DNA from: the human T2T-CHM13v2.0 reference genome, Homo sapiens
Length of the DNA: 64,000 nt
NCBI RefSeq assembly: GCF_009914755.1
Contig: NC_060947.1
Strand: one strand, 5' to 3'
Positions 25,480-49,668 of this stretch are shown here, one piece after another. Position 1 is the first letter of the stretch, and every line of letters begins with the position of its first letter. The notes under the pieces were generated by a model. The model ran no database searches, was not told the origin of the DNA, and worked only from the letters and a program-made list of their open reading frames with translations. The position numbers were made by a program, and so were the translations under genes.

Positions 25480-25670
25480 CAATAGTTAGGCCTGGTTTTA
25501 TTAAGAAAGCTATGAGGACCTCCTTGGTCACCAAAACATGCCTTTGGTAACACTGGAAAGGACCTCTGAAAGCATTCAGTTGAAGTTGGTCATGTCCAGA
25601 TCAGGAAACTTGACTTCTCCCAACAGAATTAATCACTTCTATAGTCCTATGTTAGAGTCCTTGCTTTCTC
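25480..25670 (-). pseudogene. Predicted terminal exon (RKQGL*HRTIEVINSVGRSQVS*) with poly(A) signal
   Basis: ccttctttcccttccacc...ccttag acceptor; TGA at 25603-25601; AATAAA 25502-25497. Confidence 0.45.
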
Positions 25671-26879
25671 CTAAGGCTCAGTGGTGGAAGGGAAAGAAGG
25701 GCCCTCAAGTTACCCAAGGCCAGGACTGGAGCCCAGGGCTCTTGACTCTCCATTCTGGCTTTTCTATGGCTTGCCATGAGAAAGGCCTCTGGGTCTCTAT
25801 CCAGCCAGGTTGAAGATGGAAACCCCTATCTTTCTCGCTCCAGAACCCAACTTCTGAGCCTTATGCCAAGTGGTTGAGTGAGGGAAGCAACTCCTTCAGG
25901 GAAGGCTTTGGCCTCTGCAAAAGAGAGGTTAATCTACTTCTACAGGCCATAGTGAGATACAAAAATGCTGGCACCTTAACAGTTTCATGACAAATATATC
26001 ACTCCTGGTTTTGAGATCACTATCATCTGAAGCCTCCGTAATATGTAGCCAATGGTAGGGCTGGGAAGAATAGCCTCTAATGTTTCTATCCTCCTGGGAA
26101 AACACAAATGATAAAAAATGCTCCAGGTCTCTGGGATAACATCTCTCTGCTATCTGAGCAAAAAATGAAAGCTGGCCTCAATACTGAACTTTTCTCCAAC
26201 TCTGAACATGGTCGAAAGCCCCAATACCTTAGAGATTCATAAAATAGCGATCACTGGCACTGCCTGAAACTTTCCAACATCAGGTCAGGATTATTATGAA
26301 GCCTACTAGGATTTTTGCCCTTTGGAACTCCTTTAAGCTTTTGCCAGAATGTCCACCATCTCATCCATCCATCTTGTAGTTCCCCAAGCCCAGTATGCTA
26401 GTTCTTGTCTCAACACCTTTGCCCTATCTTGGCCTGGAAAGAGTCTCCAATCCTATCCCTCTCAATCCCTCCCACCTGTTTCAGAATTCCTGATCATTTT
26501 CAAAAGAATATCTCCTCTGGGATTCAAGATCCAGTCTATTTCTTTGACTAAGCATGATTAAACATTCTTAGTACTGGATTCAAGCTTTTTTTTAGGACAT
26601 ACCACAATACTGTGATTCTTCATTGATGTATGAGTTTCTTCTGATTAGACCGTGAATTGAACACAGATCTTTTAAAATTCAGTATTCCAGCATACAGCAT
26701 GATTCCTGGAATAGAGGTTTCTGAATGAATAAATAAGCAAACAAACAAATAAATGTATAGGATGACAGAGAAATTCATTTCACTTGCCTGTTAAGTCTCA
26801 AGATTCAGAAAAAGGATGATTATTGTCCTCACACCTTTTTCAAGACAAACTAATTATTAATTGTTACCAGTTTAAAAAT

Positions 26880-27100
26880 TCTGGCAAAATTATAGATGTA
26901 GAAAAAGATCAGTGGCTGCCAAGGGAAAAAGGGAGGGGGACTGATTACAAAAGAACGTGAGGAAATTTGAGGGAGTGAGGAAAATGTTCTACATCACAAC
27001 TGTGTTGTGGTTATATGACTATACAAATTTGTCAAAATGTATCAAACTGTACACTTGGTGAGTTTTATTATATGTAAATTACAGATTAATAAAGCTCACT
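26880..27100 (+). mobile_element. Ancient L1 (L1MC/ME-like) 3'UTR fragment
   Basis: agatcagtggctgccaaggg...tgtcaaaatgtatcaaactgtacact...ttattatatgtaaattac. Confidence 0.7.
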
Positions 27101-27755
27101 TGAAATTGTATGGAATCTCAGGAAGAAAGGAGCTTTGACATCCAAAGCCATGAAAGTAATCCATGGCTGTAGCAAAAGAACACAAACATGATTGTCAAGA
27201 TACCAGTTTCCAAATCTGGAATAAACTATTTAACCTCTCTGAGACCCATCCTTCTGCCTCTATTAAATAGAGACAATAATATCTCCTTTGTCCTCCCACA
27301 GTGTGGGGCTCCAAAGAGATAACAGATGTGGCTGGACTTTGAACAGCTCAACACTTTTCTTATTATGTTCAGAATACATAATCTGTACAGCCAAAATTTA
27401 ACCAGATTCAGAGCATAGTTTGCCTAGAACTCAGAGTGAAGGGAAACAGACTAAATCCTGAATCCAGAACTTACTCCAGCTCCTCTGAATCAATTTCCTC
27501 TCATCAACAGGTTAATACATTTCCTTTAAAAATATATTATTTTCAGGCTACACTTCAAGAGAAAAGGAGACTGGCCAATCTTAACTTGTGGAAGAAGGTT
27601 TGGCCAGCTTTTTGACAGAAGACACACAAGGGTTGCAAAAGAAAAAAGAAACAACCGATAGAGAGACAAAAGAGAAAGATTCTTCCCTCAGAGTGCTGGA
27701 GGTCTATCTGGGTGCTGGTCTTGCCTTGAGAATGTCCCCACAAGAGCTTCCTCAC

Positions 27756-46676: not shown

Positions 46677-46960
46677 GGCTAGGTGCGGTGGCTCATGCTT
46701 GTAATCCCAGCAGAGGCTGAGGCGGGTGGATCACAAGGTCAGGAGATCGAGACCACCATGGCTATCATGGTCTATAAAACACAAAAAATTAGCTGGGCAT
46801 GGTCGCTGGCGCCTGTAGTTCCAGCTACTCGGGAGGGTGAGGCAGGAGAATGGAGTGAACCCAGGAGGTGGAGCTTGCAGTGAGCCAAGATGGTGCCATT
46901 GCACTCCAGCCTGGGTGACAGAGCAAAACTCTGTCTCAAAAAAAAAAAAAAAAAAAAAAA
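46677..46960 (+). mobile_element. AluY-like with small left-arm deletions
   Basis: gagatcgagacc, gaatggagtgaaccc, gagcttgcagtgag diagnostics; TSD aaaaa(t)actttgccct. Confidence 0.93.
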
Positions 46961-48036
46961 ACTTTGCCCTAAAATAATCTGGAGAAACTATAGTATTACA
47001 GCATACTCCCTCATAAAGACATCCTTAATTCTCAAAGCCAGAGAATCTCTTCTGTGTTTATTCAACATTTCTTTTACTACATTTCTAGAATATTTATTTT
47101 TGTCCATGAGTAAGGGTGTGGTAAACAGCTGCCCATCACCATTAAAATTAAACCACCTGAAAACTATAGATGGGATACTAAGAGTAAAAAGTAAGAACCC
47201 AAATTTGAACCCAAATTCTGTCATAATCTATATGATTTTGAATAAGTCACTCAACACCCCTGAGCTTGTTTCCTTGCTGTTAAAATGAGGATAATCACTC
47301 TTACCTCACAAGGTTACTATACGAATTAAAAGAAAACAATGTACATGAGAATGCCCTGAAAGGTGCCCATAGAAAGCTACCACTCAATGAATGCTAGGAG
47401 AAGAATGCTAGTTGGCTGCCCTAGGACTACATTTTTGAGGTCATATAACACAGAGTGTTGTTACTAGAAGGTGCCTCTAGATGTCCCAGACACCAAGCAT
47501 AGCCTGCTCCCCTCTATAGGGAAACCGAGGTCCATCAAGATAAAAGGACTTGTCTCAAAATCATACAGACAGCAGGGCAGAGCTGGGACACAAATATAGA
47601 TATTCTGAAACCCAGACAAGTGGCTTTCCTCAACCGCAGTCTCTGCATCTAGCTGATGCTAGAAGGGGAGGGCAGAGAGAAGGGAGCCAAAGCCAGAAAA
47701 ATGTCTCACCACCTAAGGAAAACAGGAGGTCATGGCTGTCTTAGACATCATTAAATAATCATGGTCACTTTCCTGCTACTCCCAGAGCTTCAGGTTTCTG
47801 TCCATGGCTGAACTGAGGTGTGAATATAGGAACACAGCTCCAGGAAGAGGCAAAGGTCACCCAGGGTTTTAGGATCAGTCAAGTCTCCTGCAACTGACTA
47901 CTGAGAACATTCCTTTTGGGGCATTTCTGGCTAGAGGTGGGCTGGGTGGGGCAGGGCATGGGAGTTTAGCTGGCTTTTGGGGCCCCGAATGTTACAAATA
48001 GTGATAAAACAACAACGACAACAAAAACAGCCTTAC

Positions 48037-49668
48037 GTGAGCACCACAGACTCCAGTGTAGGGCTTTCTGGCTTTGCCCTCTGCCTTGGCTGCCCCCATT
48101 TACAACTGAGGCTCCAGGGGTTGTCTGGCCTGGCTGGACACCTCAGGCCCCCTACCAGCCTCTTGCCCCTTCATCTCATTGAGCTTCTCCTCTACTTTCT
48201 CCATGACAACCTCAGTGGTAAACCTCCTTGCATAGGCACCTAGCTCACGGGACTCCCTAGCATTGTCATCTTCCTTGAGGAAGCTGACCACGGTCTCAGT
48301 GTCTTCCTCGAGTTCCTCAGAAGAGTGCTCCCTGGTGAAGGTGCCGCAGTAGACTCGGCCACGACTGCCACGCCCATGGCTGTTCTGCTGCACTGGGTTG
48401 TCCTGGAACTCAAAGATGGCCAAGGTTGGGGCAGAGGTGGCAGCAGTACAGGGACCTGCTAGGGCCTGGTCCAGCGTCTCTTCGCCCTCAATGCTCATCT
48501 CAAAAGTGCATGAGGTCTGTGAGGGCTTCAGGTGGCGGTGGTTTGGCCAGTGCCTCCCCAAGGTGCTACTCCACAGTGAGGCCTCAATGGCCCAGCAGGA
48601 CAGGTTGAGTGTTAAGGAGGACAGGGAGGCAGCACCCTCCGGATGAAGCTATTGCTGCAACTGCTGAAGTAGGCCTCCCATTGGCGGCGGGGCAACTGTG
48701 GCTCTTCACGGGTGAATGCCCACCGCTTGCAGGCCACCTCAGCCACATTGTTAAAGAATTTGATAATGACGCTCAGTGGCGCAGTCTTGTCTCAGCACCG
48801 GTGTTCGGGGCTCCCTTCATAGCTGCCTCCGAGCCTGCTTCCAATGTGGAGTCCTCGATGGCATCCTCAAACTTCTGGATTTTGGCAGCTTTGGCCCATG
48901 TACACAGGCCTTCACAGCCCCTGGGGAATATGCTTTTCAGGTAGCTTCTGCCTTTCCTTTCACCCGCAAGCTGTTCAGGGGCCTCCTCCTGCCAGGATTT
49001 GTCCTCCACTTGGATGCCAAACTCATCGAAGGCCAGCACTTTCCAGTTCACCCTCTTGGGGGCTTGGCCAGGCCCCAGCACTTCTGTGAGGAAGGACTCC
49101 AGGCCCTTGATGAAGCCAGCATAGGAATGGCTAAAGGGCTTCCCGGCCTCCTCAGCTTTCCTCATTTGATAGATACCTGGGGCATCCTGCGGCTCCTGGA
49201 TCTTGCTGCTCCTACAGGGAGTGTTCTTGGAGGCCCCAGTAGAAGGCTTCAGCCTCCTGAATGACTTCATTCAATCCATGAACCTGAATTTCGTTTCACT
49301 TCTGACAGCCTGGAGGTGTCTCCCAGTAAAAGCATGGACTGGGGTCGCTTTTCCTGGCTGGAGGCGCCTTTTCTGCAGCTCACAAAATTCCAGATCTTGT
49401 TGACTTTGATTTTCCTCTTATTCCAACCACTATCTTCCCTGGTACTCAAGTCACTCTGGTCATACTGCTCAGATTTCTCCAATTCCTCCAGCCCTACCTC
49501 TCTGGTCAGGCTTTCTACCTCAGGGTGGTCTGGGATGACTTGAGTCACATAACCATTGGGCAGCATCTCTGAGAGAGAGTTAGTACAGCAGCTGTTGAGA
49601 GTCTCCATGGTAGCAGCAGAGGATGGGGCCAAAAAGGCACAGAGGGAGGGCTGGCCCTTTATTTCCAT
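48037..49668 (-). pseudogene. Large first coding exon of the relic gene (1632 nt, frameshifted)
   Basis: ~75-nt polypyrimidine tract ending tttcag at 49669; GC-rich unique sequence tiled by ORFs 49267..49668, 48773..49270 and 48100..48561; donor CAC|gtaagg at 48036. Confidence 0.8.

What the first reader, a model, noticed from the sequence alone, without database searches (positions are those of the whole stretch)
25480..49668. Hidden 8-exon minus-strand gene relic encoding a ~720-aa protein I cannot assign; candidate unitary pseudogene
Seen: eight non-repeat segments with splice signals whose phases chain exactly: 49668-48037 |1| 45365-45308 |2| 36253-36178 |0| 35604-35481 |1| 33093-32999 |0| 31251-31143 |1| 27819-27756 |2| 25670-stop 25601, then AATAAA. 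The spliced tail reads ...KALHWSLWCSL LAALFTSWKFLSSARSPRR CVALVGCFDSELISNLVAPSQRSRK EVDLPPGNSKFFEQLIPFHCQ...TTPG NLDQASKMLE...[18 protein letters not shown]...LKR*SIHG *ASADDLS*ENLLWQLSHLTK RKQGL*HRTIEVINSVGRSQVS*. From the Kozak ATG (49608) this is 2168 nt. Inference: having introns, it is not a processed pseudogene. It looks like an ancestral gene that died in place. The product appears largely disordered, with basic-x-Ser motifs (KRPQS, RRS, RAS) suggestive of a signalling scaffold. Exons 6-8 were partly chosen on phase fit and are less secure.
Basis: partly seen in the sequence, partly recalled or inferred. Interest (0 to 1): 0.85.

Follow-up and report, generated by a model that had tools for sequence, protein, structure and literature searches.

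The report
Dead upstream exons of long collybistin
This stretch holds the broken human remains of three far-upstream coding exons that in most other land vertebrates give the synapse-organising protein collybistin (ARHGEF9) a long extra N-terminal arm, an arm humans no longer encode.

Summary

**What holds and what does not**
- Exon 1 (49668-48037, ATG at 49608) is genuine.
- A third true exon (37339-37195) was missed.

**What the true exons are**
- They are the human remains of the 5' coding module of a long ARHGEF9 (collybistin) isoform.
- That isoform is predicted intact (about 1,000-1,470 aa) in marmoset, lemur, other placentals, marsupials, reptiles, birds and amphibians.
- In those models exon 3 joins the SH3 exon in phase 0. 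In human the SH3 exon lies 193 kb downstream.
- Exon 2 has a homologue in SPATA13. The end of exon 3 aligns with the APC-binding region of ARHGEF4/Asef.

**How the human copy is broken**
- Exon 1 carries three 1-nt deletions and three stop codons.
- Exon 2 has GG where the GT donor should be.
- No paralogue of the large exon 1 turned up elsewhere in the genome.

This is an isoform-specific, in-place (unitary) loss. ARHGEF9 itself stays intact, and the relic is now annotated as the predicted lncRNA LOC124908540. My literature searches found no description of the long isoform or of its loss.

The parts
48037..49668 (-). Relic exon 1: the large coding exon of the long ARHGEF9 isoform. It has an AG acceptor at 49670-49669, the orthologous start ATG at 49608 and a GT donor at 48036-48035.
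   Evidence: Sequence. Open pieces. 154 of 155 family proteins match here. A frameshift-aware alignment to marmoset P0002 gives 423 of 547 codons identical.
49291..49293 (-). Lesion 1: a 1-nt deletion in a Pro codon (frame 0 to frame 2).
49271..49273 (-). Lesion 2: TGA where orthologues have Arg (FMD-R-MKSF). Probably CGA>TGA (inference).
   Evidence: The unnamed fragment P0030 starts at the Met right after it.
48833..48835 (-). Lesion 3: a 1-nt deletion (frame 2 to frame 1). It is absent from the catarrhine-like fragment P0030.
48792..48794 (-). Lesion 4: TGA where orthologues have Arg (..QC-R-EK/DK..). P0030 ends at this same point.
48636..48638 (-). Lesion 5: a 1-nt deletion (frame 1 to frame 0).
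48100..48102 (-). Lesion 6: TAA where orthologues have Glu (EPQL-E-MGA).
37195..37339 (-). Relic exon 2 (145 nt, open, enters in phase 0 and leaves in phase 1). The AG acceptor at 37341-37340 is kept.
   Evidence: 108 of 155 family proteins match here. It has a homologue in a SPATA13 exon.
37193..37194 (-). Lesion 7: GG at the position of the exon-2 splice donor. The homologous SPATA13 exon has GT at the equivalent place. The RefSeq lncRNA model skips this exon.
   Evidence: plus the annotation supplied with the finding. That the ancestral base was T is inferred, not seen.
32999..33093 (-). Relic exon 3 (95 nt, open, AG and GT kept). Its end (..GPGNKPVNE) is the counterpart of the Asef APC-binding region.
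24106..26705 (-). Terminal exon of the predicted lncRNA (AG acceptor present). No family protein matches it.
   Evidence: Annotation supplied with the finding.

Best explanation
**What it is.** Window 49668-32999 (minus strand) holds three exons. They are the decayed human copy of the 5' coding module of an ancestral long isoform of ARHGEF9 (collybistin).

**How it works where it is intact.** In other tetrapods a distal transcription unit reads:
- a large exon of about 520-900 codons, mostly low-complexity with five conserved islands;
- a 48-codon exon;
- a 32-codon exon.

It then splices in phase 0 onto the SH3 exon common to all collybistin forms. The product has a long arm, a pre-SH3 segment homologous to the Asef/Asef2 regulatory region, and then SH3-DH-PH.

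**Human state.** The arm can no longer be made. Exon 1 has three single-base deletions and three premature stops, and exon 2 has lost its GT donor. The surviving splice sites (exon-1 donor, exon-3 acceptor and donor) are still used in a predicted noncoding transcript, LOC124908540, which ends in a terminal exon inside the window.

**Shown here:** orthology, exon structure, the lesions, and the absence of a paralogue of the large exon 1.

**Inferred:**
- The arm belonged to ARHGEF9 rather than to a separate gene.
- The arm was regulatory, by analogy with the Asef APC-binding region that relieves SH3 autoinhibition.
- The loss happened in the catarrhine lineage after the split from New World monkeys.
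For: **Orthologues**
- the last open piece of exon 1 finds 29 proteins. 22 are named ARHGEF9 isoforms of 956-1159 aa, including marmoset (75% identity), lemur, rabbit, rodents, horse, camelids, pig and cattle. The other 7 are stand-alone or unnamed ORFs.
- profile searches reach marsupials, squamates, turtles, birds, frogs, a caecilian and axolotl. 438 hits have E<=1e-3; of the best 120 listed, most are named ARHGEF9.
- 74 of the 157 proteins held at that point carry the extension joined directly to LI[ST]G..SIVSAEAVW.

**Exon structure**
- matches to the window fall only on 48037-49668, 37195-37339 and 32999-33093, plus read-through just past the exon-1 donor.
- the tail of exon 1 plus exons 2 and 3 read open in the orthologous frame.
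- the rest of the marmoset protein maps to ARHGEF9 exons from C23:62149984 downward, same strand, 193 kb away.
- Stand-alone models end in unrelated read-through tails, for example bat ...NEVRTLS, which equals the human intron after exon 3. Exon 3 therefore has no conserved terminal end of its own.

**Ties to the paralogues**
- ARHGEF9, ARHGEF4 and SPATA13 share the same phase-0 acceptor before LI(S/T).
- the PDB Asef ABR-SH3 chain 3nmz_D aligns back into exon 3, from query residue 60.
- a SPATA13 exon 34.5 kb upstream of its SH3 exon is homologous to exon 2 (E = 4.7e-6) and leaves in the same phase.

**Lesions and paralogues**
- One search lists the exon-1 lesions.
- no second copy of the large exon 1 in the genome.
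Against: - Every orthologue is a computational gene model. I saw no transcript, junction or peptide evidence.
- Several pipelines annotate the extension as a separate 'uncharacterized LOC' (bats, goat, two marsupials, birds).
- The placental extension is weakly conserved. It keeps 50-69 of the 116 columns that are 90% conserved in 33 non-mammal proteins.
- Marmoset, the closest 'intact' copy, lacks the canonical ATG (Lys instead) and has a 6-aa deletion in exon 2. It keeps only 42 of 56 conserved positions, no better than the human relic at 41 of 56. Its frame may be open without being used.
- The ancestral GT at the exon-2 donor is inferred from the paralogue and from the orthologous proteins, not seen in DNA.
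- The timing rests on one unnamed protein fragment (P0030).
- Exon 1 begins at an acceptor after a polypyrimidine tract, so the promoter and a 5' exon lie elsewhere. They were not found in the window.
Confidence: 0.85

Rival explanations
1. The three exons belonged to an independent gene lying upstream of ARHGEF9 and encoding a 560-850-aa disordered protein. The ARHGEF9-fused models would then be read-through artefacts of gene predictors. On this reading the human locus is a classical unitary pseudogene of that gene.
For: - Stand-alone 'uncharacterized protein LOC...' models exist in bats, goat, brushtail possum, monito del monte, a skink and several birds.
- The human lncRNA model also terminates on its own, inside the window.
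Against: - Stand-alone models have no shared C-terminus. After exon 3 they run into intron read-through.
- Exon 3 ends in phase 0 exactly where the SH3 exon starts in all three paralogues.
- Exons 2 and 3 are homologous to the pre-SH3 coding regions of SPATA13 and Asef. They were therefore part of this GEF family before it split.
- 74 of 157 fetched proteins, from several annotation pipelines, carry the junction.
Confidence: 0.1
2. One reading: an 8-exon, ~720-aa gene that ends at 25601 with its own stop and poly(A) signal.
For:
- An AATAAA follows at 25502.
Against:
- There are five stops in exons 6-8, and the frame taken out of exon 1 is wrong.
- 6,360 AG..GT segments are available by chance.
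Confidence: 0.02
3. It is a processed or duplicated pseudogene of a gene that is still active elsewhere in the human genome.
For: Exon 1 is a long uninterrupted stretch of coding-like sequence (1.6 kb).
Against: - Six-frame searches of the whole genome found the large exon 1 only here. The queries were two human pieces, the marmoset, possum and skink proteins, and the most conserved 123 aa.
- The locus has introns in orthologous positions.
- Those searches used a strict first pass, so matches below about 60 bits could have been missed.
Confidence: 0.01

Closest known systems
N-terminal regulatory region of Asef (ARHGEF4) and Asef2 (SPATA13): the APC-binding region (ABR) in front of the SH3 domain
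   Same: - All three paralogues share the phase-0 intron before LI(S/T)....
- The end of exon 3 aligns with the Asef ABR. Asef reads ..PGGGGEQLAINE|LISDGS; non-placental long collybistin reads ..KPLKPGAEQLLVNK|LISGGS.
- Exon 2 (..SLP[LI]SQS.P..LDQ.GW..) is homologous to the SPATA13 exon ..FTFSQSTPIGLDRVGRRRQM.., and the two exons share their exit phase.
   Different: - The published APC-ARM motif is XGGG[D/E]X-hydrophobic-hydrophobic (PMC4860839, passages read). It is only partly kept outside placentals (one of three Gly; Glu and both hydrophobics present).
- In placentals and in the human relic it is lost (..QGPGNKPVNE, no acidic residue).
- The large exon 1 has no detectable counterpart in human SPATA13 or ARHGEF4.
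Described collybistin isoforms (CB1-3, with or without SH3)
   Same: The SH3, DH and PH exons are the same. Some long models also skip the SH3 exon, as the described SH3-minus forms do (lemur P0004).
   Different: A review of collybistin variants distinguishes them by C-terminus and by SH3 presence only (PMC3351755, passages read). None has a 560-900-aa N-terminal extension. Human ARHGEF9 as annotated starts 132 kb downstream of relic exon 3.
Human unitary pseudogenes (genes lost in place, with working orthologues elsewhere)
   Same: Working-looking orthologues exist in other lineages. The human copy carries several disabling lesions at the syntenic place, has no parent or paralogue for its large exon 1, and is still transcribed as a noncoding RNA.
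   Different: Only an alternative 5' module was lost. The host gene remains intact.

Membership tests
Unitary pseudogene | An open, conserved orthologous coding sequence in other species | tested here: met
   Open frames occur in placentals, marsupials, sauropsids and amphibians. All are predicted models; function was not tested.
Unitary pseudogene | Disabling mutations in the human copy | tested here: met
   three 1-nt deletions and three stops in exon 1. GG at the exon-2 donor.
Unitary pseudogene | No functional paralogue or parent gene in the same genome | tested here: met
For the large exon 1, searches find only the window itself. Exon 2 does have an ancient homologue in SPATA13.
Unitary pseudogene | The whole gene is inactivated | tested here: not met
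   the SH3, DH and PH exons of ARHGEF9 are matched at 87-98% identity. Eight of the nine matched stretches have no stops inside; the 990-1090 stretch shows two (TGA, TAG). Only the upstream module is broken.
Processed pseudogene | An intronless copy of an mRNA whose parent gene lies elsewhere | tested here: not met
   The three exons are separated by introns of 10.7 and 4.1 kb. No parent locus was found.
Long ARHGEF9 isoform, N-terminal module | Conserved islands of exon 1 (IWNFVSRRKG..KRPQSM; FMDRMKSFKRL; PFRHSYAG; FGGV.KFF..AE.ARKWR) | tested here: met
   Islands are defined. All are recognisable in the human reading, with changes at conserved positions, for example PFSHSYAG and ACKRW.
Long ARHGEF9 isoform, N-terminal module | Exon 2 and exon 3 in the orthologous order, strand and phase, leading to the SH3 exon | tested here: met
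   Actual splicing to the SH3 exon cannot be tested with these tools.
Asef-type APC-binding region | Motif XGGG[D/E]X-hydrophobic-hydrophobic just before the SH3 exon (PMC4860839) | tested here: not met
   The human relic and placentals read ..QGPGNKPV... Non-placental orthologues read ..KPGAEQLL.., which is a partial match.
Asef-type APC-binding region | Binding to the APC armadillo domain | not testable with these tools
   No APC sequence may be used in the complex tool here, so no test was run.
lncRNA | A transcribed, spliced RNA without a usable long ORF | tested here: inconclusive
   The ORF is broken, and skipping exon 2 shifts exon 3 into a frame with a stop. Transcription rests on a predicted RefSeq model only.

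The most novel reading that the evidence does not exclude
Ancestral collybistin was an Asef-like exchange factor carrying a long N-terminal regulatory arm. That arm included a pre-SH3 segment of the APC-binding type. It is still encoded by most tetrapods and was lost in the catarrhine lineage leading to humans. It also did not appear among my hits for mouse, rat or carnivores. If so, the species in which collybistin biology has been worked out would lack what may be its ancestral full-length form, and a transcribed fossil of that form sits upstream of human ARHGEF9.
Probability: 0.3. Interest if true: 0.7.

Novelty: new member of a known kind. Interest (0 to 1): 0.55.

Why it matters
ARHGEF9 organises inhibitory synapses, and the gene is X-linked (recalled from general knowledge, not from a call).

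- **Regulation.** If most tetrapods make a collybistin more than 1,000 aa long, with an N-terminal arm related to the Asef regulatory region, then regulation of this exchange factor differs between humans and many model or farm species.
- **Family history.** It would tie collybistin to the Asef/Asef2 ancestry further upstream than the SH3 domain.
- **Annotation.** It gives the uncharacterised lncRNA LOC124908540 an origin.
- **A clean example.** It shows an isoform-level loss: a protein-coding 5' module turned into a noncoding transcript while the host gene stays under strong constraint. Mean column conservation is 0.92 for the core against 0.53 for the arm.

Tried and rejected
- **Pfam on the four open human pieces.** No family was found. 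The only hit was DUF2511 at E = 0.21, below its cut-off.
- **AlphaFold2 of the rabbit long isoform with a 47-row alignment.** Mean pLDDT was 37 and pTM 0.31. Even the known DH and PH domains came out poorly, so the model is unusable. The only element in the arm was a helix over residues 280-300 (the FGVVIKFF..ARKWR island) at pLDDT about 50. I draw nothing from it and ran no fold search.
- **ESM Atlas look-alikes of the bat extension.** The best scores were 0.83 (AMER3, CRACD-like, titin). That is below the level the tool treats as more than chance, so I rejected them. The extension carries no AMER Pfam domain in the precomputed lists.
- **Search for the upstream 5' exon seen in the marmoset and rhinoceros models.** Only noise came back (best E = 0.07-0.6). 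The exon and the promoter remain unlocated. There is no CpG island between 49.5 and 51.7 kb.
- **Own-genome search with an alignment.** The tool does not accept alignments for this genome, so I used single proteins instead.
- **Literature.**
  - 'LOC124908540': 0 papers.
  - ARHGEF9 with alternative first exon, N-terminal extension, long isoform or upstream exon: none of the 15 listed papers mentions ARHGEF9.
  - Collybistin with isoforms, N-terminus, evolution or exon 1: only general reviews.
  - These searches cover open-access text only, and I opened no supplements.
- **Selection test.** dN/dS could not be computed, because no orthologous DNA is reachable with these tools.

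
Full report
**1. The observation**

The window is human chrX (T2T) upstream of ARHGEF9. The description is too generous in several ways.
- Segment 1 (49668-48037) is not one ORF. 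It is four open pieces in three frames, of 133, 165, 59 and 182 codons.
- 2168 nt is not divisible by three.
- The chained frame of exons 6-8 holds five stops.
- The minus strand of 25480-48036 offers 6,360 AG...GT segments of 50-130 nt, 3,416 with an open frame. Phases that 'chain exactly' can be had by choice.

**2. What exon 1 is**

Pfam finds nothing in the open pieces. Sequence searches, however, are decisive.
- The last open piece (window 48648-48103) matches 29 predicted proteins with E from 6.7e-79 down.
  - 22 are named ARHGEF9 isoforms of 956-1159 aa: marmoset at 75% identity, lemur, rabbit, pika, marmot, beaver, pocket mouse, horse, camelids, warthog and cattle.
  - 7 are stand-alone or unnamed ORFs of 561-646 aa (bats, goat, metagenome contigs).
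- The second piece finds 10 proteins in the representative library.
- A profile of seven stand-alone proteins finds 48 proteins. These add two marsupials at 31% identity and a skink.
- A wider profile finds 438 proteins at E<=1e-3. Of the 120 listed, most are named ARHGEF9 isoforms of about 1,150-1,470 aa, from marsupials, geckos, lizards, snakes, turtles, birds, frogs and axolotl. The remainder are 'uncharacterized LOC', 'hypothetical' or unnamed rows, including the caecilian Rhinatrema.

Exon 1 is therefore the human copy of a large coding exon at least as old as tetrapods.

**3. The true exon structure**

tblastn of the marmoset, rabbit and a bat protein against the window places the next coding pieces at 37342-37193 and 33094-32990.

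I then ran all 155 family proteins held at that time. Two spurious hits, P0036 and P0038, had been dropped beforehand.
- 154 match exon 1.
- 108 match 37195-37339.
- 23 match 32999-33093.
- The only other matches, six alignments from five proteins, lie in the intron just past the exon-1 donor. They come from ORF callers that read through it.

Read in the orthologous frame, the tail of exon 1, then 37339-37195, then 33093-32999 is open. It reads ...PYTGVCGAH | AFSP...MMLCI-G | NLDQASKMLE...GNKPVNE.
- The real exon 2 was missed.

**4. Where it led**

In 74 of the 157 proteins held at that point, the extension is followed directly by LI[ST]G..SIVSAEAVW, the start of the collybistin SH3 exon.

In the human genome the rest of the marmoset protein maps to ARHGEF9 exons on the same strand. 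These begin at C23:62149984, 193 kb downstream of relic exon 3 and outside the window.

Stand-alone models have no common C-terminus. After exon 3 they continue into what in human is the intron (bat ...NEVRTLS; Molossus ...NAVRNLPYFLWNLP...). The two marsupial tails differ from each other. Exon 3 is thus an internal exon.

Three further results tie the module to this GEF family.
- Human ARHGEF9, ARHGEF4 and SPATA13 share the same phase-0 acceptor before LI(S/T).
- The PDB chain of Asef ABR-SH3 bound to APC (3nmz_D) aligns back into exon 3, from query residue 60. Non-placental orthologues end exon 3 with ..KPLKPGAEQLLVNK, against Asef ..PGGGGEQLAINE.
- A turtle exon-2/3 peptide hits two places in the human genome: relic exon 2 (E = 3.2e-9), and an exon 34.5 kb upstream of the SPATA13 SH3 exon (E = 4.7e-6). 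The SPATA13 exon reads ..FTFSQSTPIGLDRVGRRRQM.. and leaves in phase 1 like exon 2.

The large exon 1 has no detectable counterpart elsewhere in the human genome.

**5. How the human copy is broken**

A frameshift-aware alignment to marmoset gives 423 of 547 codons identical. It shows six lesions in exon 1:
- 1-nt deletions at about 49293, 48835 and 48638;
- TGA at 49273-49271 and at 48794-48792, both at Arg positions;
- TAA at 48102-48100, at a Glu position.

Exon 2 is open, but the two bases after its last coding base are GG (37194-37193). The homologous SPATA13 exon has GT at that place, and the RefSeq lncRNA model skips this exon. Exon 3 is open and keeps its AG and GT.

Skipping exon 2 puts exon 3 into a frame with a stop. 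The annotated transcript (exon 1, exon 3, then 26705-24106) therefore cannot encode the arm.

**6. Constraint and timing**

Across 47 full-length tetrapod proteins the arm has seven conserved islands: five in exon 1 and one each in exons 2 and 3. Mean column conservation is 0.53, against 0.92 for the SH3-DH-PH core.

Of the 116 arm columns conserved in at least 90% of 33 non-mammal proteins:
- marsupials keep 68-87;
- placentals keep 50-69;
- marmoset keeps 52.

Of 56 columns conserved across 46 non-marmoset proteins, marmoset keeps 42 and the human relic 41. Marmoset also has Lys at the canonical start and a 6-aa deletion in exon 2. Constraint thus looks relaxed in placentals, and perhaps already in early anthropoids.

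An unnamed 159-aa fragment, P0030, is 81% identical to the human piece. It shares human-derived residues that marmoset lacks.
- It begins at the Met right after the first TGA.
- It ends where the second TGA stands.
- It reads straight through the site of the 48835 deletion.

This suggests that both nonsense mutations predate the split between humans and that catarrhine-like species, and that the deletion came later. This is inference from one fragment.

No catarrhine, mouse, rat or carnivore protein appeared among the 29 hits or the 48 hits. Absence from a protein database does not prove loss.

**7. Function**

The arm has no Pfam domain in any precomputed list.

By position and homology, exons 2 and 3 correspond to the Asef/Asef2 segment that holds the APC-binding region. 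The published APC-ARM motif is XGGG[D/E]X-hydrophobic-hydrophobic (PMC4860839, passages read).
- Outside placentals it is only partly present (..KPGAEQLL..).
- In placentals and in the human relic it is absent (..QGPGNKPV..).

I therefore propose a regulatory arm acting on or next to the autoinhibitory SH3 domain. Its working like the Asef region is a hypothesis. Membership of the ABR class is not met for the human sequence. The structure prediction failed, and the Atlas look-alikes scored at chance level.

**8. Known or new**

A review of collybistin variants lists only C-terminal variants and variants with or without SH3 (PMC3351755, passages read). My searches found no paper on LOC124908540 and none linking ARHGEF9 to a long N-terminal isoform. 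The long models sit in public databases as predictions.

**9. Verdict**

This is a real coding relic, lost in place. It is best described as the dead 5' module of a long ARHGEF9 isoform, now a predicted lncRNA. In kind it is a new member of a known class (lineage-specific loss of ancestral coding sequence that leaves a noncoding transcript). It has a useful twist for collybistin biology.

Noticed in passing
L011 (G000:C13:23457295-23460447), match at C13:23458795-23458947 +: A human SPATA13 exon (..QPASRPP...FTFSQSTPIGLDRVGRRRQMRASN, donor G|gtgag, phase 1) is homologous to relic exon 2. The pre-SH3 exon pair therefore predates the split of collybistin and Asef2.
   Followed up: partly
window 49669-49760: Exon 1 starts at a CAG acceptor behind a long polypyrimidine tract. 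The marmoset and rhinoceros models carry a further upstream exon. The RefSeq lncRNA start at 49663 is therefore probably not the true 5' end. No CpG island lies between 49.5 and 51.7 kb, and the upstream exon was not found in the window.
   Followed up: partly
P0002 (marmoset): The marmoset 'intact' copy has Lys at the canonical start codon and lacks six residues (LPISQS) in exon 2. It keeps only 42 of 56 conserved positions, so the module may be decaying in New World monkeys too.
   Followed up: partly
P0031, P0034, P0035, P0037 (unnamed sources): These short ORF fragments of the same exon come from unnamed mammals. They run out of the conserved frame part-way, for example after ..AFDGF in P0034 and after ..KGFIW in P0031. 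That would fit independent breakage of the exon in other lineages.
   Followed up: no
P0011, P0012 (Bactrian camel): These camel models carry an extra 20-residue piece (RESTESLPCFPPFAPTVSSK) between exon 3 and the SH3 exon. It is either an additional alternative exon or a prediction artefact.
   Followed up: no
window 47380-48036 (minus strand, intron after exon 1): ORFs from other mammals that read through the exon-1 donor still align to the human intron for up to about 300 bases (six alignments from five proteins). The start of this intron is thus well conserved.
   Followed up: no
The nearest language-model look-alikes of the arm were AMER3 clusters (APC membrane recruitment family), at a chance-level score of 0.83. 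This is curious only because AMER1 lies further along the same chromosome arm and because the pre-SH3 segment is of the APC-binding type. There is no sequence support for a link.
   Followed up: partly
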